Virus record (IMG/VR): IMGVR_UViG_3300047476_001402
Span: 1-64,000 of that record
From: a virus
Length of the DNA: 64,000 nucleotides
Reading direction: 5' to 3' (one strand)
This document shows, piece after piece, positions 9,994 to 64,000 of the stretch. The first letter of the stretch is position 1; the number at the start of each line of letters is the position of its first letter. Made by a program: the position numbers and the translations under genes. Below the pieces are notes generated by a model. That model was not told the DNA's origin. It saw nothing but the letters and a program-made list of their open reading frames with translations, and searched no databases.

Positions 9994-10876
9994 GTTTAAT
10001 TTTTTATAAATAATTTTCAAAATGAACAAAGAACAAATCAAATCAACAGTTGAAGAACTCGCAGCAGATGCTCTTATTGAAATATCTTCTAGGAAATTGA
10101 GAAAACTTGTAAATCTCGTCACCGAACTATCTGATGATAGTGATATTACTCTTGAAGAAATTAAAGAGGATATCCAAGTTATTGCAGGCGATGATGCGGA
10201 TGATTGGGACGAGTTCACAGAAGAACTTGCCAATTTTATTCTTTTCATTGATGAAGAAACCCAAATTGAAGAAAGCGAAGAGGATGATTGATCTTGATGA
10301 AGTTAACGTAATTGAACTTGTAGGTGGTCCACGCTGCGGTGATATGTTTAAGTTGGATGAATCATCTGATTTAGATGTTTTTGATGTTCCTTATGAAATT
10401 GTCGGTAAAGGTGGTAAAGTTCATAAGTTTGAAGCACAGTACACAAAACGAATGGACGGAAAAGCACAGTATTGTGGAGGATAATATGAAAGCATCCTTA
10501 AAGTGTAAAACCCCAGCAAAAGCACAAGTGAATTACCGCAAACACCAACGCACGATTATGAACAGAACTGAACGGCGTATTGGAAAGAGTTGTGTAGATC
10601 GCGAAGAATAGTGGTTGACTTGCTACGTTCATGTGCGATAATTTATAATGCGTACTGCTAATTGGACATTCAAGTGGAGGATAATTTCTTGGGAAGCACT
10701 CAGTCTTGGATTACAGAAATGGTATTTTCTACCTTTAATAAAAGCTGATTGGGAAACTCCTACCAGTGGATGGAATGGTAATTATGACGATACTCAAAAA
10801 GTGATATTGAGTATTGCATGGCTTACTGCATATGTAGAATTTACTATAACACCTAACAGCATCACATCTTAAAATT

Positions 10877-19246: not shown

Positions 19247-19275
19247 TTGACACCACAGTGTACCAGTGGTATACT
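19247..19275 (+). promoter_or_regulatory. strong sigma70-like promoter of the TROVE-like gene
   Basis: TTGACA-17 nt-TATACT with extended -10 TG. Confidence 0.75.
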
Positions 19276-19301
19276 CTAACACAGAAAACAACTATCAAAT
19301 T

Positions 19302-20990
19302 ATGTTCGACAATAAACAAACAGTGCTATTTAAATCTCCAGTTAAGAAAACTACTTCAGCCGTGCAGAAAACTAAGGCTGTTCCAATTTTTGTTCAAGCT
19401 GCACAGAAAAAGACCGTGGAAACACGTTCTGGAAATGGTGCATTGAAATTGAGTTCTACTCTTGATTCTTTCGTGGATCAGTTCGGAAAGCTTGGAACCT
19501 ATAAGGCTCCCCGTTCTTTCTCTGAAATCGAAAAAGATTGTGAACTTCTTTGGGGAAATGACCCTCTTACATCTGTGAAGTTTACTCATTATCTTCGCAC
19601 CATCACCCGAAAGGTGAATGTGTTGGGAACGACTACTGATGAACCTCAAAAAGGTGGTGAGTTGAAGTTTGAACCAATTATGCGAATGATTTGGCTCTCT
19701 CAGAAGGCACCAGAAGTATTCTGGAAAAATATCGGATTGTTTATTTCCCTTGGAAGTTGGCACGATATTTTCACCATGCTTCAATATGATCTTGTCTATA
19801 ATGGATGGGATAATCGTAAGCTGGATTGGAAGAAATTCGGAGATTTAATTCTCACTGCATTGAACAATGATCACACTAATAATCTTGTGAAGAAATATCT
19901 TCCACAGATTAAAGCTCGTTCCGACTGCAAAACAGTTGAATCACAGGCTAATTGTCTAATTGCAAAGTGGATTTGTTCTCTTCTCTTCGGACCAAAGGAT
20001 AATTCCTATAATTATAAACAATACCGCAAGCTAAAAACTTCTGGTAATGCACACGATTGGCAAAAGCTTATCTCCCAGCGCAAATTTGATGCAATTGAGT
20101 TTGATAAGATTCATGGACGGGCACTGAACCTTTTGGTTCGTAGCAAATTCCTGAAGAATCAGAATCTTTCTGACAAGTATGCAAAATGGGTAGGTGATCC
20201 AAAAACAACTGTGAAGTATACTGGTTTTGTTCATGAACTCTTTAGTAATCTTCCTTATAGTCTTTCCGGCTTGGAAAAACATACACAGGATACTATCAAT
20301 AAGCAATTTGCTACATTGGTGGAAAAAGGAAAGAGTGAAAAGAAAGAGAATCAGTGTAATTTCATAGTAGTACGCGATACCTCATCTTCGATGAATTCTA
20401 CTGCTGTTGGAACGACTCAAAGTTGTGCTAATATCGGAAAAGCATTGGCATTATATTTCAGCGAGTTCTTAACTGGACGATTTGCAGATAGCTTTATCGA
20501 ATTTAATTCAACTGCAAAAATGCATAGATGGGTAGGTAATAATGCCTTAGAAAAATGGTACAATGATCAATGTGGATTCTATGGTAGCACCAATTTCCAA
20601 AGCGTTATTGATCTCTTCGTTCATTTGAAAAATCAAGGAATTGATGAATCTGAGTTCCCTACTGGTATTCTTTGTATCAGCGACAGCGAGTTTAACCCTA
20701 CACAATTGAGTAATACCAATGTGGAGGAAGCTCGTAGAAAGCTTCGCACTGTGTTTAGTAAGGAATTCGCAGATAAATTCCAAATTGTTCTCTGGAATCT
20801 CCAGAATAACTTTTATGGAAAAGGTTCAGGTGAGAAGTTTGAAACTACTGCGAATGATAGAGGCTGTTACTATTTCAGCGGATATTCCGCAAGTGTAATT
20901 AGTTTCATTACAGGGCATGAAGTGATGACTGCTCGACAGTTATTCGATACCGCAATGGATCAACAGGTTCTCAATATGGTTACTCTGTAA
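19302..20990 (+). CDS. TROVE/Ro60-like protein with C-terminal vWA domain (DUF2828-like); start moved to MFDNK
   Basis: T..GNGA..LSST, GSWHDIF, KKYLP, YRKL; vWA MIDAS motifs RDTSSSM, STNF, ISDSEFN, IVLWNL, SGYS. Confidence 0.8.
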   Translation: MFDNKQTVLFKSPVKKTTSAVQKTKAVPIFVQAAQKKTVETRSGNGALKLSSTLDSFVDQFGKLGTYKAPRSFSEIEKDCELLWGNDPLTSVKFTHYLRTITRKVNVLGTTTDEPQKGGELKFEPIMRMIWLSQKAPEVFWKNIGLFISLGSWHDIFTMLQYDLVYNGWDNRKLDWKKFGDLILTALNNDHTNNLVKKYLPQIKARSDCKTVESQANCLIAKWICSLLFGPKDNSYNYKQYRKLKTSGNAHDWQKLISQRKFDAIEFDKIHGRALNLLVRSKFLKNQNLSDKYAKWVGDPKTTVKYTGFVHELFSNLPYSLSGLEKHTQDTINKQFATLVEKGKSEKKENQCNFIVVRDTSSSMNSTAVGTTQSCANIGKALALYFSEFLTGRFADSFIEFNSTAKMHRWVGNNALEKWYNDQCGFYGSTNFQSVIDLFVHLKNQGIDESEFPTGILCISDSEFNPTQLSNTNVEEARRKLRTVFSKEFADKFQIVLWNLQNNFYGKGSGEKFETTANDRGCYYFSGYSASVISFITGHEVMTARQLFDTAMDQQVLNMVTL

Positions 20991-22313: not shown

Positions 22314-22635
22314 GAAAATAGTAGTAAGGTTTAGAACAATATAAAACATATGGACGATGAAATTATCAGTGTAGCGGTCGATGCGGCAAGCGGCAGCGGA
22401 AATAGCCCCGGATTTGGTGGATTTTTACTTGTAATGCTGGCAGTCATATCCCTACCTATTTTCCTCATTACTAAATGTGTGGGAGAAGCGCCAGAGGCTA
22501 AACTCATTCGAGTTATCAGTTCCCCTATAACAGATAAAAATCCTGATGAATCGTTTTCCCATTTTATGGGTCGAAAAACAAAGGATACTATTATAGACTT
22601 TGGTAAGGGTGTTATTGGAAAATAACAAAAATAAC

Positions 22636-22664
22636 TTGCACAGATGATGAAGAAGTGGTAATGT
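22636..22664 (+). promoter_or_regulatory. promoter of ncRNA array 1
   Basis: TTGCAC-17 nt-TAATGT with TG, ending 11 nt before unit 1. Confidence 0.6.
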
Positions 22665-22675
22665 ACAGGACAATA

Positions 22676-22737
22676 AGATTACTAACAGCAACCTTAACAA
22701 CAATGATCTTTTAAATCAACACGTTAAATGTAATCTG
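22676..22737 (+). ncRNA. CAGCA-stem RNA unit 1
   Basis: AGATTAC-t-AACAGCAA ... GTAATCT-G; internal hairpin TGAT-CTTTTAA-ATCA. Confidence 0.75.
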
Positions 22738-22742
22738 CTAAA

Positions 22743-22856
22743 GAATGTCACACAGCAACAAATAAAAACTTTTTTCTATTCAAAAAACCCATCCAAGTTC
22801 GACTCTTGGAAGCGTTAACCGGCTGATTGGTAGAGGGCGAAACGGTAAGACATTCG
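22743..22856 (+). ncRNA. CAGCA-stem RNA unit 2 (T arm then D-loop-like)
   Basis: GAATGTC-a-CACAGCAA ... GACATTC-G; T arm TCCAAG-TTCGACT-CTTGGA, later TTGGTAGA. Confidence 0.8.
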
Positions 22857-22862
22857 AATATA

Positions 22863-22962
22863 AGAGTATTAACAGCAAAATTATAATATTTTCGCCAAAC
22901 ATTGAAACGAAGTGGTTCGACTCCGCCCGTAATAGCTGACGGTTCAGCGCAAACATACTCTG
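22863..22962 (+). ncRNA. CAGCA-stem RNA unit 3 (permuted tRNA elbow)
   Basis: AGAGTAT-t-AACAGCAA ... ATACTCT-G; GTGG-TTCGACT-CCGC followed by TAGCTGACGGTTCAGCG. Confidence 0.8.
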
Positions 22963-22966
22963 AAAA

Positions 22967-23089
22967 AGAATATCAACAGCATTATAAAATATATGAGCCC
23001 AATTCTAGGTCGGAGGTTCAAATCCTTCAATTCCCGCAAGGGATTTAGCTCAGGGGTAGAGCAAGAATAATATTAAAAATGATATTCTG
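22967..23089 (+). ncRNA. CAGCA-stem RNA unit 4 (complete circularly permuted tRNA, YrlA-like)
   Basis: AGAATATC-AACAGCAT ... GATATTCT-G; ATTCT, AGGTC, T arm, acceptor stem closed by GCAA, D arm TAGCTCAGGGGTAGAGCA, AGAAT. Confidence 0.85.
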
Positions 23090-23485
23090 AAATTTTACAA
23101 AAATATGGGATCACTTTTAGGAAAAATAGCAGAAGAACATAGAGACTTCGAAGAATGGTGTGAGAACAGACAATACCCATTTCCTTCTAGAGAGTTTTGG
23201 AAGCATCAGCCTTATTATGATGAGTATAAACTTCCCGAAAAATTGAAGGATGAGGAAAACCAAAAATCAAGGAAATCGTATAACGAAAAGCGTCGTAATG
23301 ATGAAGGTGATAAAATCGGTTTACTTAATGATAGATTTTTAGGAACTCCTGAAGTGGATTATACATGTGGGTGCGGACACCCTAAAGCGCGATATCTTCC
23401 CGGATTTGTTTTGACAAGTGAATACGGTTGTGCTAAATGTGGAAATGTAGTCGGAGGAGAATATTAAAAATGATATTCTGAAATT
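23069..23485 (+). repeat. 26-bp perfect direct repeat (23069-23094 and 23460-23485)
   Basis: AATATTAAAAATGATATTCTGAAATT occurs twice, flanking ORF 23105-23467. Confidence 0.85.
23105..23467 (+). CDS. hypothetical protein with C-terminal zinc ribbon
   Basis: CGCG...CAKCG; enclosed by the 26-bp repeat. Confidence 0.7.
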   Translation: MGSLLGKIAEEHRDFEEWCENRQYPFPSREFWKHQPYYDEYKLPEKLKDEENQKSRKSYNEKRRNDEGDKIGLLNDRFLGTPEVDYTCGCGHPKARYLPGFVLTSEYGCAKCGNVVGGEY

Positions 23486-23735
23486 ATTAAAAGAAAATAA
23501 TATGCAACTTAAAGAACTTTTGGCAGAAATTATGTCTGAATTAGACCAACCAATGGGAAATATTGATCTTAATAAGATACAATCTAAGATGTACCTTGTG
23601 GCAGGTCTATTGACCGACGACGATACAAAAGTTCCTGTTGAAGTATTTGACCTCTTTCCCGAGGAGTATAAGAAATCAGCTATAATATTGTATATGAAAA
23701 TGATTGCACAGACACTTGCTGAAGGATAATTAAAA

Positions 23736-23902
23736 GCCCTTGTATTCTACAAACGTAGCCATTACGTGAAATGTATTATGCATAATATATTAAAAATGGA
23801 CAACTCTTAAAGGCCGAAACAGAAATACTAGTAGTATGTTAGGATAAAGGAGTTGTATATGACGAGGATGGTAAGCTAGCTCGGACCTAGCCAAGGGCAC
23901 CA
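23736..23902 (+). ncRNA. 167-nt expanded tRNA-like RNA
   Basis: Acceptor stem GCCCTTG/CAAGGGC plus ACCA; T-like arm GCTAG-CTCGGAC-CTAGC; long internal hairpins. Confidence 0.75.
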
Positions 23903-24566
23903 ATTTTAAAAATAATGAAACCAAAGATTATAGGATATGAAAAAGATGGTAAATTCTATGGAATTGCCACACATCTAGGAGGAGTTTATGTTAGTAGAGC
24001 AGATATTAATATCTATTATGTTAATGATAAGCAACTTTTAAAAGATTTCGAATCGGCAAAACTTTTGGTTCAAGGTAAGGTGTACAGAGAAGGAATGTCA
24101 TTGAAATTGAATAAAGAGGAATTAGAATCGTTTGGGCGGGGTAGACTTTTTATTTCAACTGTAAGAAATGCAAAAGAATTTAAGATAGCGGAGAAATATC
24201 CATCAGATAGCACAAGAACAGTTGCATTAAGAGCACAATTTAAATTGACAACCGAACAAGGAGTGATATAGTCGAGTATGACAATAACAACAAAACTAAA
24301 TATTGGCGATACATTTTGGATTCCTTTTAATCTCAATGGTGAAATTGTCGCCCTCGATTTAAAGGTTAAAAAGATTGGAATCACCGATGAAGGAATTTTT
24401 TATTTAGGAGATGCAGGATCATTCCCCTATCCTGAAAGGGCGATCTTCAAAACTGAGCAAGGCGCACTGAAAACTTGTTTCGAAGAGTGGAAAGAAAAAA
24501 AGAAATCTAACTACTACTGTATTTAAAAAAAAACAATGAATAGTAAGTAGTGTAAAGTTAGATATA

Positions 24567-24624
24567 GAGAGATAAACAGCAATTAAAAAAACTTTTTATT
24601 GGAAAAAAACAAAAACGTCTCTCG
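24567..24624 (+). ncRNA. CAGCA-stem RNA unit 5
   Basis: GAGAGAT-a-AACAGCAA ... GTCTCTC-G; internal TTTTT-ATTGGAA-AAAAA. Confidence 0.75.
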
Positions 24625-24628
24625 GATA

Positions 24629-24753
24629 AGGTTCACATCAGCAAAATAATACAAGACTCTTATTGTTATAAAGCAAGCCGATCTGGTGCAATCCCGGTAA
24701 TTGTGTAAGGCATCTACAAGCTCTAGTGGGCAGGAAAAAGATCCATGAACCTG
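24629..24753 (+). ncRNA. CAGCA-stem RNA unit 6
   Basis: AGGTTCA-c-ATCAGCAA ... TGAACCT-G; T-loop-like CTGG-TGCAATC-CCGG, later GCTCTAGTGGG. Confidence 0.75.
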
Positions 24754-24756
24754 AAA

Positions 24757-24827
24757 AAGTCTTTGTCAGCATCTTAAACTCTTCTTTCAAAAACATCGAA
24801 ATGTCCAGAAGGCATTTCAAAGACTTG
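24757..24827 (+). ncRNA. CAGCA-stem RNA unit 7
   Basis: AAGTCTTTG-TCAGCAT ... CAAAGACTT-G; CTTTCAA loop and GAAATGTC/GGCATTTC hairpin. Confidence 0.75.
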
Positions 24828-24831
24828 GATA

Positions 24832-24975
24832 AAATCATCAACAGCATATAAACTTCTATGTAAATAATTATCCTAACGGGTGTCCTCGTTCAAGTCGGGG
24901 GTGTGGAGCATATAGAGATAAAAATTCCACATTGGCGGAATGGTAGACGCGATTAAGAAAAAAGATGATGATTTG
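24832..24975 (+). ncRNA. CAGCA-stem RNA unit 8 (circularly permuted class II, Leu-like tRNA)
   Basis: AAATCATC-AACAGCAT ... GATGATTT-G; V arm ATCC-TAAC-GGGT, T arm CCTCG-TTCAAGT-CGGGG, acceptor GTGTGGA/TCCACAT, D arm TGGCGGAATGGTAGACGC. Confidence 0.85.
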
Positions 24976-24979
24976 AATA

Positions 24980-25163
24980 AAAATTCTAACAGCAATAAAT
25001 TATATCACATAACGGCTCTAAGGTACTACAGTCGGGAAACCGATGCCGGGACGGTCTAATAAATGCTCGCTAAGTCGAAAGATATGCGAGAAAGACGGGA
25101 CAAAGGAGGAAAAGCTTAATGCTCCCTTATCTGTCAGCCATACACAATATAAATAGAATTTTG
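24980..25163 (+). ncRNA. CAGCA-stem RNA unit 9 (large multi-hairpin payload)
   Basis: AAAATTCT-AACAGCAA ... AGAATTTT-G; GAAA-capped hairpins TCGG-GAAA-CCGA and CTCGC..GAAA..GCGAG. Confidence 0.7.
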
Positions 25164-25203: not shown

Positions 25204-25238
25204 AAAAACCCGTAAGATTAACATCTTACGGGTTTTTT
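25204..25238 (+). terminator. intrinsic terminator closing array 2
   Basis: AAAAACCCGTAAGAT-TAAC-ATCTTACGGGTTTTTT. Confidence 0.85.
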
Positions 25239-63188: not shown

Positions 63189-63450
63189 ACATATTACTTA
63201 CGTAATTATATGTGGAATTTAAATGTACCGTTGGCAAGATTTACGTTTTCATATAGTTGCATCTCGTCTAACTTGGTAGATTTACGACCGTCTTTATATA
63301 TTATTGATAGTGGTTCACAACTATCAATTGATACATCTAATTTTATTGGAGTTTTTTTGTCTATACTTTTCTGTATAAATGACATCATCACTAATATGGA
63401 TGAAAGAAACTCTTCACTTCCTTCTAATTCTAATTTCATCAAATTATATG

Positions 63451-63528
63451 AGGCGACTCAGGGGATCGCACCCTGCCGTTTAATAAGAATTTTGCAGATT
63501 CTCCGTTTCACTAGCCACGCCAGCCGCC
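63451..63528 (-). tRNA. tRNA-Cys(GCA)
   Basis: Acceptor GGCGGCT/AGTCGCC; anticodon arm GAGAAT-CTGCAAA-ATTCTT; atypical T loop TGCGATC; no full CCA. Confidence 0.75.
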
Positions 63529-63622
63529 ATTATATTCCGTGTTTATCGGGTACACGGAAAAAGAAACCATAGCAAAATCATAAGAGTTTGCGTATCTTTT
63601 AGAAGTTTTTAATTTCTAAAAT

Positions 63623-63696
63623 TGGTACGGGGTAAGTGAATCGAACACTTTCTTCTGGAATGTAAAACCAGTTCGCTACCGTTACAACAACCCCGC
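63623..63696 (-). tRNA. tRNA-Val(TAC)
   Basis: Acceptor GCGGGGT/ACCCCGT-ACCA; anticodon loop TTTACAT; T loop TTCGATT. Confidence 0.8.
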
Positions 63697-63716
63697 ATTT
63701 ATTACTTATAAAAGTT

Positions 63717-63791
63717 TGGTACCTATACAGAGATTCGAACTCTGAACAAAATATTTTTGAGATATTCTCCTCTACCAATTGGGATATAGGC
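63717..63791 (-). tRNA. tRNA-Leu(CAA) with short variable loop
   Basis: Acceptor GCCTATA/TATAGGT-ACCA; anticodon arm AATAT-CTCAAAA-ATATT. Confidence 0.8.
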
Positions 63792-63845
63792 GTATAAAAT
63801 ACTTATTCGAAGGATTTCACGAACGTTCTGAATTTAAATGCCTAC

Positions 63846-63916
63846 CAAGGCTAGGGAATCGAACCACATCTAAATTTATCTCTCTTCTTTCGGTGGTTAT
63901 AACACACCTAGCCTTG
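63846..63916 (-). pseudogene. degenerate tRNA-like sequence
   Basis: CAAGGCTA/TAGCCTTG terminal stem and GGTTCGATTCC, but no anticodon stem or CCA. Confidence 0.5.
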
Positions 63917-63924
63917 CGGCGATT

Positions 63925-64000
63925 TGGTACCATTGGTGGGAGTCGAACCCACAGATAACATGTTTCTAAGACATGTGTGTTTACCAATTACACCACAACG
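63925..64000 (-). tRNA. tRNA-Leu(TAG) with short variable loop; 5' end cut by the window edge
   Basis: Anticodon arm CATGT-CTTAGAA-ACATG; T arm GTGGG-TTCGACT-CCCAC; ACCA end. Confidence 0.85.

What the first reader, a model, noticed from the sequence alone, without database searches (positions are those of the whole stretch)
22704..24792. Several units display anticodon-like 7-nt loops: possible decoys for host anticodon nucleases
Seen shortly after CAGCA: unit 1 TGAT-CTTTTAA-ATCA (the loop matches tRNA-Lys UUU), unit 2 TTTTT-CTATTCA-AAAAA, unit 5 TTTTT-ATTGGAA-AAAAA (UGG, Pro) and unit 7 TT-CTTTCAA-AA (UUC, Glu). All have U at loop position 2, like U33. Established: tRNA-Lys(UUU) is the PrrC target. 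Inference: the short units are anticodon mimics that soak up nucleases or modification enzymes. Caveat: the stems are weak and AT-rich, so some may be chance.
Basis: inference. Interest (0 to 1): 0.7.

Follow-up and report, generated by a model that had tools for sequence, protein, structure and literature searches.

The report
Anticodon-arm mimics on phage handle RNAs
Some of the small RNA genes beside this lake phage's Ro60-like protein gene end in look-alikes of tRNA anticodon hairpins, a design kept in dozens of related phages that may bait host enzymes which read or cut tRNAs.

Summary
The window is part of a 90-kb freshwater phage record. At 22676-23086 and 24567-25160 lie nine tandem RNA units. 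Each has a 7-bp closing stem, 1-3 nt, CAGCA, then a variable body.

Of the four claimed loops, U1 (Lys-UUU type) and U5 (Pro-UGG type) are real hairpins. U2 is an anticodon-like arm in tRNA register with a T arm. U7 has only 2 bp and is not supported. In this window alone such hairpins are no denser than background.

The evidence is comparative. I fetched 63 viral loci with the neighbouring DUF2828/DUF7788 gene.
- They and the window hold 242 tandem units on the gene strand, against 2 on the other strand.
- Of 127 distinct short units, 84 have a 7-nt-loop hairpin (34 in shuffles).
- 44 fit Y-U-NNN-R-N (3.9 in shuffles).
- 26 loops equal real anticodon loops of tRNA genes in the same records (0.56 in shuffles).
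- Stems covary. Lys and Thr types are over-represented.

So anticodon-arm mimicry is well supported. The decoy role is untested inference; "bait on a Ro60-like particle" is my best reading.

I found no paper describing this. Earlier notes of this scan report the same system in other phage genomes.

The parts
19266..20990 (+). Gene for a 574-aa DUF2828/DUF7788 protein with a vWA-type C-terminal half. It is the presumed protein partner of the RNAs.
   Evidence: Pfam DUF7788, E 4.2e-12. Among 26 homologues: DUF7788 in 26, DUF2828 in 19, vWA_Ro60 in 2. PHROG 850 'RNA-binding protein', E 1.3e-32. Pfam TROVE has no match in the genome.
22633..22661 (+). Weak promoter-like site (TTGCAC, 17 nt, TAATGT) ahead of array 1.
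   Evidence: Read from the sequence. The scan tool did not list it. Clearer TTGACT-17-TATAAT or TAAATT sites sit at the same place in L012 and L010. Inference.
22676..22736 (+). U1, short unit. Handle stem 22676-22682 with 22730-22736. CAGCA 22686-22690. Outer stem 22694-22698 with 22723-22727. Anticodon-arm mimic 22704-22718 with loop CTTTTAA (Lys-UUU type) at 22708-22714.
   Evidence: Detector. MFE fold. Orthologous first units keep the loop on different stems in L009, L010 and L012. The loop is identical to real phage tRNA-Lys loops.
22743..22855 (+). U2, long unit. Anticodon-like arm 22771-22787 (loop CTATTCA), 5-nt spacer 22788-22792, T arm 22793-22809, then a D-loop-like stretch.
   Evidence: Sequence and detector. 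The same layout is seen in L010 10646-10756. Of 123 long units, 7 have an anticodon-like hairpin 3-6 nt before a T arm. The hairpin is not in the MFE.
22863..22961 (+). U3, long unit with a T-arm-like hairpin. It has no anticodon-like arm.
   Evidence: A similar unit is in L012 at 2397-2493.
22969..23086 (+). U4, permuted tRNA-like unit: T arm, acceptor-like hairpin, D arm.
   Evidence: Rfam YrlA, 35.6 bits against a gathering score of 69, E 3.7e-5. Fold.
24567..24623 (+). U5, short unit. T-run/A-run hairpin 24593-24609 with loop ATTGGAA (Pro-UGG type).
   Evidence: Detector and hairpin scan. Orthologues keep T-run, (A)TGG, A-run, but the loop length varies. The same 7-mer is the anticodon loop of real tRNA-Pro genes in L021 and L038.
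24629..24752 (+). U6, long unit with an unclassified body.
   Evidence: z-score -0.19.
24759..24824 (+). U7, short unit. The claimed loop at 24782-24792 rests on 2 bp only. The alternative is CTTCT/AGAAG (24781-24785 with 24807-24811) enclosing ACAT-CGAA-ATGT.
   Evidence: The hairpin scan finds no 7-nt-loop hairpin of 4 bp or more.
24834..24972 (+). U8, permuted class-II-like tRNA mimic: long variable arm, T arm, acceptor halves, D arm.
   Evidence: Sequence, detector, fold.
24982..25160 (+). U9, long unit with a non-tRNA body.
   Evidence: Detector. Not analysed further.
25204..25238 (+). GC-containing hairpin followed by a T run. It is the likely terminator of array 2.
   Evidence: Sequence. 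Perfect 14-bp hairpin shown in the Rfam alignments. The scan tool did not list it.

Best explanation
The nine units are genes for modular small RNAs of one family. A short closing stem plus the single-stranded motif CAGCA forms a constant 'handle', and the body varies. In the short units the body is a rod whose tip copies a tRNA anticodon arm: a 4-5 bp stem and a 7-nt loop, with U at loop position 2, a purine at position 6 and a variable triplet between.

In this window U1 shows a Lys(UUU)-type arm and U5 a Pro(UGG)-type arm. U2 has an anticodon-like arm joined to a T arm. Other units show the tRNA elbow instead.

Shown here:
- the hairpins exist;
- they are conserved, with covarying stems;
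- they match real anticodon loops;
- the arrays travel with a DUF2828/DUF7788 gene.

Inferred:
- the handle binds that Ro60-like protein, as Y RNAs bind Ro60;
- the anticodon-arm tip acts as a bait or competing substrate for proteins that read anticodon arms;
- the most likely targets are host tRNA-cutting defence nucleases, which would spare the tRNAs the phage needs.
For: Arrays
- Tandem units number 242 on the gene strand and 2 on the other, in the window plus 63 loci.
- 47 of these 64 sources have tandem units.

Short units (127 distinct)
- A 7-nt-loop hairpin of 4 bp or more is in 84, against 34.1 +/- 4.5 in 500 dinucleotide shuffles. Other loop sizes sit at background.
- Among the 84 best loops: T at position 2 in 62, purine at position 6 in 69, C at position 1 in 35 (payload C is 14%).
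- Y-U-NNN-R-N is in 44 of 127, against 3.9 +/- 1.9 (maximum 11).
- C-U-NNN-A-A is in 26, against 0.6 +/- 0.8. The reversed-sequence control gives 2 and 0.
- Motif-first test: CT...AA is flanked by 4 bp or more in 26 of 49 occurrences in short units, against 615 of 15698 elsewhere in the loci.
- 26 of 84 loops equal one of 91 real anticodon loops from 337 ARAGORN tRNAs of the same records, against 0.56 +/- 0.75 in shuffles.

Structure
- RNAalifold on 30 whole units returns only this stem: 4 pairs, all with compensatory changes and none broken.
- There are 42 distinct stems among 55 selected hairpins.

Hold-out set
- Ten MAG contigs give 24 tandem units against 2.
- 4 of their 12 short units carry C-U-NNN-A-A hairpins.

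Anticodon spectrum
- Lys types are 15 of 42 mimics, against 13 of 331 real tRNAs. Thr types are 8 of 42 against 16 of 331.
- PARIS AriB's prime targets are Lys-UUU and Thr-UGU (PMC12409363, abstract and section 22).
- PrrC reads the anticodon stem-loop.
- Cas13b6 cuts isolated anticodon stem-loops (preprint PMC13692257, passages).
Against: - No cleavage, binding or expression datum exists. No RNA run holds the stretch.
- In the window alone the hairpins are at background density, and folds are weak.
- Asn types are not enriched: 2 of 42 against 16 of 331.
- 43 of 127 short units have no such hairpin, and 40 of the 84 best loops miss Y-U-NNN-R-N.
- The UGG class has loops of variable length in close relatives.
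- Units are related by descent, so the counts are not independent events.
- Hairpins were selected for pairing, so their percentage paired is by construction.
- Mimic stems match no tRNA of the same records (0 identical 15-mers).
- Mimic stems match no host tRNA-Asn in one MAG.
Confidence: 0.42

Rival explanations
1. The RNAs are baits or tethers for readers of the anticodon arm that are not defence nucleases. Candidates are aminoacyl-tRNA synthetases that recognise the anticodon (Lys, Thr, Pro, Gln, Asn), the t6A37 or m1G37 modification enzymes, and the ribosome. The Ro60-like particle would be brought to them, or would sequester them.
For: - The commonest loop type, C-U-NN-U-A-A, is shared by tRNAs that read ANN codons. 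N36=T holds in 29 of 42 mimics against 113 of 331 real tRNAs.
- Orthologous units change the wobble letter but keep the amino-acid family: UUU in the window and L012, CUU in L009 and L010.
- YrlA RNAs are substrates of tRNA-modifying enzymes (PMC4201824, abstract).
- That these synthetases and the t6A enzymes read positions 35-37 is recalled knowledge, not from a call.
Against: There is no obvious gain for a lytic phage from sequestering synthetases. Ser- and Leu-type loops also occur, and to my recollection their synthetases do not read the anticodon. Nothing here tests it.
Confidence: 0.2
2. The RNAs belong to a tRNA repair or quality-control particle. The Ro60-like ring with its handle RNAs would recognise damaged tRNAs, and the tRNA-part bodies would gate or guide this rather than act as decoys.
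For: - Ro60, Y RNA and RNA-repair genes are linked in bacteria, and some jumbo phages carry TROVE proteins together with RNA ligases (PMC7824862, section 3.4.9 passages).
- A phage Ro60 with Y-like RNAs binds host PNPase (PMC12135203, passages).
Against: No RNA ligase, kinase or RtcB gene was found next to the arrays among the ORFs I scanned. An anticodon-arm copy has no evident way to recognise a broken tRNA.
Confidence: 0.12
3. The hairpins are leftovers. The units arose by capture of tRNA pieces, and the anticodon arms persist only as stable hairpins that hold the handle RNA together, with no reading of the loop.
For: Bodies include every part of a tRNA, and even whole tRNA-like bodies. This fits repeated capture of tRNA genes.
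Against: - Loop positions 1, 2, 6 and 7 are kept while stems change.
- 7-nt loops alone are enriched.
- The spectrum is skewed to Lys and Thr relative to the phage tRNA repertoire.
- No mimic shares a 15-mer with a tRNA of the same records.
Confidence: 0.12
4. The hairpins are chance AT-rich structures with no meaning.
For: The window alone shows background density and weak fold z-scores. The U7 loop is a 2-bp artefact.
Against: All family-level tests point the other way.
Confidence: 0.03

Closest known systems
Ro60 (Rsr) with tRNA-like Y RNAs, YrlA type (Rfam RF02553; Chen et al. 2014, PMC4201824; phage phiLo Ro60 with Yrl1/Yrl2, PMC12135203)
   Same: Small RNAs are encoded beside a ring-type RNA-binding protein gene with a vWA domain. 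The RNA ends are closed by a stem, and a module mimics part of a tRNA. U4 gives a sub-threshold YrlA hit.
   Different: - The protein is DUF2828/DUF7788, not a Pfam TROVE match.
- The handle is a 7-bp stem plus CAGCA.
- The RNAs come in arrays of many units.
- The short units show an anticodon arm, whereas in YrlA that position is taken by the long stem carrying the Ro60 site. D. radiodurans Yrn1 has only a possible 6-nt-loop 'anticodon arm'.
Phage-encoded tRNAs that escape anticodon nucleases (T5 tRNA-Lys, Thr and Asn against PARIS AriB; PMC12409363, PMC11464382)
   Same: This is a phage RNA answer to tRNA-targeting immunity. It concerns the same tRNA identities (Lys, Thr) that dominate the mimics.
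   Different: Those are full, chargeable tRNAs that replace the cut ones. The units here have no acceptor end and cannot be charged, so they could only compete or bait.
Class I RNAs of dictyostelid amoebae (Rfam RF01414; Kjellin et al. 2021, PMC7919456, passages)
   Same: About 55-65 nt. A short stem joins the ends, a conserved motif containing ACAGCAA lies next to the 5' stem strand, and the rest is variable. Full-length Rfam matches fall on the gene strand only: U1 24.0 bits, U5 18.5 bits, and 9 matches of 25.2-33.7 bits in 7 loci. At least 7 of those 9 fall on units my detector had called.
   Different: All scores are below the gathering score of 41.5. The paper reports Class I RNAs only in Dictyostelia. 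The directly binding protein it names is the RRM protein Rnp1A. I could not test whether this is common descent or convergence.

Membership tests
tRNA anticodon arm (mimicry of shape and loop, not tRNA membership) | 7-nt loop closed by a stem of about 5 bp | tested here: met
   84 of 127 short units against 34.1 +/- 4.5 in shuffles. Only the 7-nt loop size is enriched. Stems flanking CT...AA are 4 bp in 13, 5 bp in 12 and 6 bp or more in 1. Window: U1, U2 and U5 yes, U7 no.
tRNA anticodon arm (mimicry of shape and loop, not tRNA membership) | U33, purine 37 and pyrimidine 32 around a variable triplet | tested here: met
   In 84 loops: T33 in 62, R37 in 69, Y32 in 56. In 331 real phage tRNAs: T33 in 320, R37 in 315, Y32 in 326. 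The mimics are looser than real tRNAs.
tRNA anticodon arm (mimicry of shape and loop, not tRNA membership) | Loop identical to a natural anticodon loop | tested here: met
   26 of 84 against 0.56 +/- 0.75 in 500 shuffles. The U1 and U5 loops are in the real set. The U2 loop is not.
Functional tRNA | Acceptor stem with a 3' end, D arm and T arm detectable by tRNA finders | tested here: not met
   ARAGORN and Rfam tRNA find nothing at 22.6-25.2 kb. Short units have no T or D arm.
YrlA / Y RNA (RF02553) | tRNA-like T arm, acceptor-like hairpin and D arm on a long stem | tested here: not met
   U1, U5 and U7 lack these. Only U4 resembles YrlA, at 35.6 bits, below the gathering score of 69.
YrlA / Y RNA (RF02553) | Encoded next to a Ro60/TROVE gene | tested here: inconclusive
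   Pfam TROVE has no match in the genome or in 5 MAGs. The neighbour is DUF2828/DUF7788. vWA_Ro60 matches 2 of 26 homologues.
Dictyostelid Class I RNA (RF01414) | Rfam score at or above the gathering score | tested here: not met
   24.0 and 18.5 bits in the window, 25.2-33.7 bits in loci, against 41.5.
Anticodon-nuclease decoy (functional class) | Bound or cut by a tRNA-targeting nuclease, and protects phage growth | not testable with these tools
   The only support is the overlap of the Lys and Thr bias with published nuclease targets.

The most novel reading that the evidence does not exclude
The handle RNAs and the Ro60-like ring form a programmable bait particle. The swappable anticodon triplet is an address that draws a given tRNA-cutting defence nuclease (PARIS-, PrrC- or RloC-like) onto a non-tRNA substrate or into an inactive complex. 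That would be an RNA-decoy counter-defence against tRNA-targeting immunity. The same handle design in dictyostelid Class I RNAs would then point to a related, still unrecognised particle in eukaryotes.
Probability: 0.25. Interest if true: 0.85.

Novelty: new variant of a known kind. Interest (0 to 1): 0.72.

Why it matters
tRNA-cutting nucleases are a widespread arm of bacterial immunity. The known phage answers are repair enzymes and replacement tRNAs. A family of phage RNAs that display only the anticodon arm, with the triplet varying from unit to unit, would be a third kind of answer. It would also be a simple, testable one, because a 60-nt RNA can be synthesised and assayed.

It would give a job to a large protein family of unknown function (DUF2828/DUF7788). 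It would also extend the Y RNA idea, a handle plus an effector module, to a module class not described before. Even if the target is not a nuclease, the conserved loop signature identifies an RNA-protein recognition problem that is ready for experiment.

Tried and rejected
- A blastn of the region against the phage collection found nothing.
- PDB profile searches with 4 and 26 homologues found nothing at E up to 10.
- Pfam TROVE found nothing in the phage record or in 5 MAGs.
- The ESM Atlas gave only DUF2828/DUF7788 clusters and holds no structure.
- Sequencing runs: no RNA holder listed, only three DNA runs from freshwater metagenomes that may be the source.
- The promoter and terminator scan was at shuffle level and missed both sites that I read by eye.
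- Single-sequence folds have weak z-scores.
- MAFFT put the T-run/A-run hairpins out of register (A3). I dropped 13 of 55 rows before the pair count (A4, 42 rows). Those rows had already been selected for a stem of 4 bp or more and for T at position 2 plus a purine at position 6, so their pairing percentage and the invariant T are by construction.
- Host mimicry test: the Asn-type arm of L072 has no match within 2 mismatches in a tRNA-Asn of its MAG. A tRNA-Tyr arm differs from it by one letter. MAG binning is not a reliable host call, so this gives no conclusion.
- Mimic arms are not copies of tRNAs in the same records: 0 identical 15-mers. In 6 cases a mimic and a real tRNA of the same anticodon share a record.
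- I considered T loops and rejected them: none of the 84 loops fits TTC-R-A.
- I considered terminators and rejected them: the stems are AT-only and no T run follows.

Literature: searches found no description of handle RNAs with anticodon arms or of DUF2828 RNA partners. PMC10870794 is not held. I did not ask for supplements. Chen et al. 2014's supplementary tables of phage YrlA candidates could bear on the claim that this is not in print.
Full report
**What is there**

The window is the first 64 kb of a 90-kb IMG/VR virus record. CheckV rates it 34% complete. Freshwater metagenome runs hold it.

On the + strand I find nine tandem units:
- U1 22676-22736
- U2 22743-22855
- U3 22863-22961
- U4 22969-23086
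- U5 24567-24623
- U6 24629-24752
- U7 24759-24824
- U8 24834-24972
- U9 24982-25160

Each unit has a 7-bp closing stem, 1-3 nt, the motif CAGCA, a variable body, and the complementary stem strand. Neighbouring units are 5-9 nt apart. Four small ORFs without family matches separate the two arrays.

About 1.7 kb upstream lies a 574-aa gene at 19266-20990.
- It matches Pfam DUF7788, and its homologues also match DUF2828 (19 of 26) and vWA_Ro60 (2 of 26).
- It matches PHROG 850 'RNA-binding protein'.
- U4 gives a sub-threshold hit to the Y RNA-like family YrlA, 35.6 bits.
- No tRNA finder calls anything in the region.

**The four claimed loops**

- U1: TGAT/ATCA with loop CTTTTAA, 22704-22718. 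It is in the minimum-energy fold, inside an outer 5-bp stem.
- U5: five T against A's, with loop ATTGGAA, 24593-24609. The hairpin exists but its register is ambiguous, and the MFE does not predict it.
- U2: TTTTT/AAAAA with loop CTATTCA, 22771-22787. Five nt and a canonical T arm (22793-22809) follow, which is the tRNA spacing. Its position 6 is C, and the MFE does not predict it.
- U7: TT/AA around CTTTCAA. It has 2 bp only. The constrained fold uses these bases in a CTTCT/AGAAG stem. I reject it.

Fold z-scores are -1.2 to -1.7. Within the window the density of N-U-NNN-R-A hairpins of 4 bp or more is 2.09 per kb in the units and 1.54 per kb elsewhere.

**Homologous arrays**

The protein, and then a 4-sequence alignment of it, retrieved 63 viral loci at 34-75% identity.
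- A mechanical detector with a tandem filter (gap of at most 15 nt) finds 242 units on the gene strand and 2 on the opposite strand. 47 of the 64 sources have them.
- 238 units are distinct: 127 short (body of at most 52 nt) and 111 long.

In short units, hairpins of 4 bp or more with a 7-nt loop occur in 84 of 127, against 34.1 +/- 4.5 in dinucleotide shuffles. With 5 bp or more the figures are 51 against 13.6 +/- 3.4. Loops of 3-6 and 8-11 nt stay near the shuffle mean.

The 84 best loops have T at position 2 in 62, a purine at position 6 in 69, C at position 1 in 35 (body C is 14%), and A at position 7 in 50.

| Loop pattern | Short units (of 127) | 500 shuffles | Reversed sequence | Reverse complement |
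|---|---|---|---|---|
| Y-U-NNN-R-N | 44 | 3.9 +/- 1.9 (max 11) | 2 | 32 |
| N-U-NNN-R-A | 36 | 2.7 +/- 1.6 | 2 | 6 |
| C-U-NNN-A-A | 26 | 0.6 +/- 0.8 | 0 | 0 |

The reverse complement keeps part of the first pattern, as expected from its symmetry.

- Starting from the motif instead of the hairpin, CT...AA is flanked by 4 bp or more in 26 of 49 occurrences in short units. Elsewhere in the loci the figure is 615 of 15698.
- 29 of the 44 loci with short units have at least one Y-U-NNN-R-N unit.

**Are they anticodon loops?**

- ARAGORN finds 339 tRNA genes in the same records. 337 lie outside units, with 91 distinct anticodon loops.
- 26 of the 84 mimic loops are identical to one of these, against 0.56 +/- 0.75 in shuffles.
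- The identical loops include Lys-UUU, Thr-UGU, Asn-GUU, Cys-GCA, Arg-UCU, Met-CAU, Ser-GCU, Ser-UGA and Tyr-GUA types. They also include the unusual ATTGGAA of real tRNA-Pro genes in L021 and L038.
- The coupling of positions 36 and 37 is tRNA-like: T36 is followed by A in 34 of 39, and 9 of 12 G37 follow G36.
- None of the loops is a T loop.
- 7 of 123 long units place such a hairpin 3-6 nt before a T arm.
- Some units carry D, anticodon and T arms, or a whole tRNA-like body, inside the handle. By position, therefore, the hairpins are anticodon arms.

**Covariation**

RNAalifold on 30 whole Lys- and Thr-type units predicts only this stem: 4 pairs, each with 9-17 sequences changed on both sides and none broken.

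Orthologous first units keep the loop on different stems:
- window TGAT/ATCA
- L012 ATGT/ACAT
- L009 and L010 TTGT/ACAA

The triplet is UUU or CUU.

The pair count on 42 selected hairpins gives 74 cells changed on both sides, against 20.2 +/- 3.5. This is inflated by my selection for pairing.

The UGG class is looser. Close relatives keep T-run, (A)TGG and A-run with loops of about 4-8 nt. More distant ones have exact 7-nt loops on TCAAA/TTTGA stems.

**Hold-out**

Ten MAG contigs, found afterwards, give 24 tandem units against 2. Among their 12 short units, 4 carry C-U-NNN-A-A hairpins of Leu-UAA, Asn-GUU, Lys-UUU and Arg-UCU types.

**Spectrum**

Among 42 Y-U-NNN-R-N mimics, compared with 331 real tRNAs:
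- Lys types are 15, against 13 (Fisher p 6.5e-9).
- Thr types are 8, against 16 (p 0.0025).
- Asn types are 2, against 16 (no enrichment).

These counts share ancestry and are not independent. Mimic stems never equal the stems of tRNAs in the same records.

**Mechanism**

Shown: conserved anticodon-arm copies sit on a constant handle, in arrays that travel with one protein family.

Inferred, by analogy with Ro60 and Y RNAs: the protein binds the handle and the body addresses a partner. In that system a stem binds the ring and a module tethers an effector (PMC4201824, passages; PMC12135203, passages).

Proteins known to read this arm include PrrC (PMC1484252, passage) and AriB of PARIS. AriB's prime targets are Lys-UUU and Thr-UGU (PMC12409363, abstract and sections 22-23). 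Cas13b6 cuts isolated anticodon stem-loops (PMC13692257, passages).

I therefore favour a bait or competing substrate for tRNA-cutting defence nucleases. This step is untested. Synthetases, modification enzymes, a repair role, or inert leftovers remain possible.

**Comparison and novelty**

The closest known system is Ro60 with YrlA. The short units fail YrlA's defining tRNA-elbow domain, and the protein fails Pfam TROVE. I therefore file this as a variant, not a member.

The handle also resembles dictyostelid Class I RNAs. Full-length but sub-threshold Rfam matches fall on the gene strand only (PMC7919456, passages).

Seven paper searches found no description. I did not ask for supplements. 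Some jumbo phages are known to carry TROVE proteins (PMC7824862, passage).

Earlier notes of this scan report the same handle RNAs with anticodon arms in many other phage genomes, and report that the protein folds like Ro60.

Noticed in passing
window 22676-22736 and 24576-24621; L031 9092-9150 and 9291-9345; L025 5462-5515 and 5216-5265; L009 4550-4607; L016 8598-8651 and 5869-5927; L012 2337-2392: Short units give full-length, gene-strand-only matches to Rfam Dicty_Class_I_RNA, at 18.5-33.7 bits against a gathering score of 41.5. Both RNA kinds have a short end-joining stem, a motif containing ACAGCAA next to the 5' strand, a length of about 55-65 nt and a variable remainder.
   Followed up: partly
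window about 23066-23095 and 23459-23487: A near-identical stretch of about 26 nt, which includes the 3' strand of U4's handle, recurs at the end of ORF 23105-23467. It looks as if that ORF was inserted at the end of U4.
   Followed up: no
L047 2935-3050; L044 4529-4641; L027 12990-13101: Some units enclose a whole tRNA-like body: in L047, Rfam tRNA 53.4 bits and ARAGORN Tyr-GTA. Others carry D, anticodon and T arms with the handle in place of the acceptor stem.
   Followed up: partly
L016 3304-3454: Hatchet ribozyme match above threshold (75.1 bits against a gathering score of 51), upstream of the DUF2828/DUF7788 gene of that phage contig.
   Followed up: no
L010 about 10752-10856: A unit of the same build has CTGCA instead of CAGCA, so my detector undercounts units.
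   Followed up: no
G000:C1 63450-81991 (window 63450-64000 and beyond): The phage record carries 18 predicted tRNA genes on the - strand. None is a tRNA-Lys(UUU) or tRNA-Thr in the part that is held. Its tRNA-Glu loop, CTTTCAA, is the same 7-mer as the unsupported U7 'loop'.
   Followed up: partly
tRNA genes of the 64 phage records: Three of 331 predicted tRNAs have the anticodon CTA (amber-reading). This may point to suppressor tRNAs or recoding in some of these phages.
   Followed up: no
L012 2231-2259; L010 10129-10157 and 10235-10263: Clear sigma-70-like promoters (TTGACT, 17 nt, TATAAT or TAAATT) stand a few bases ahead of the first unit of arrays. In L010 a second one lies inside the array.
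   Followed up: no
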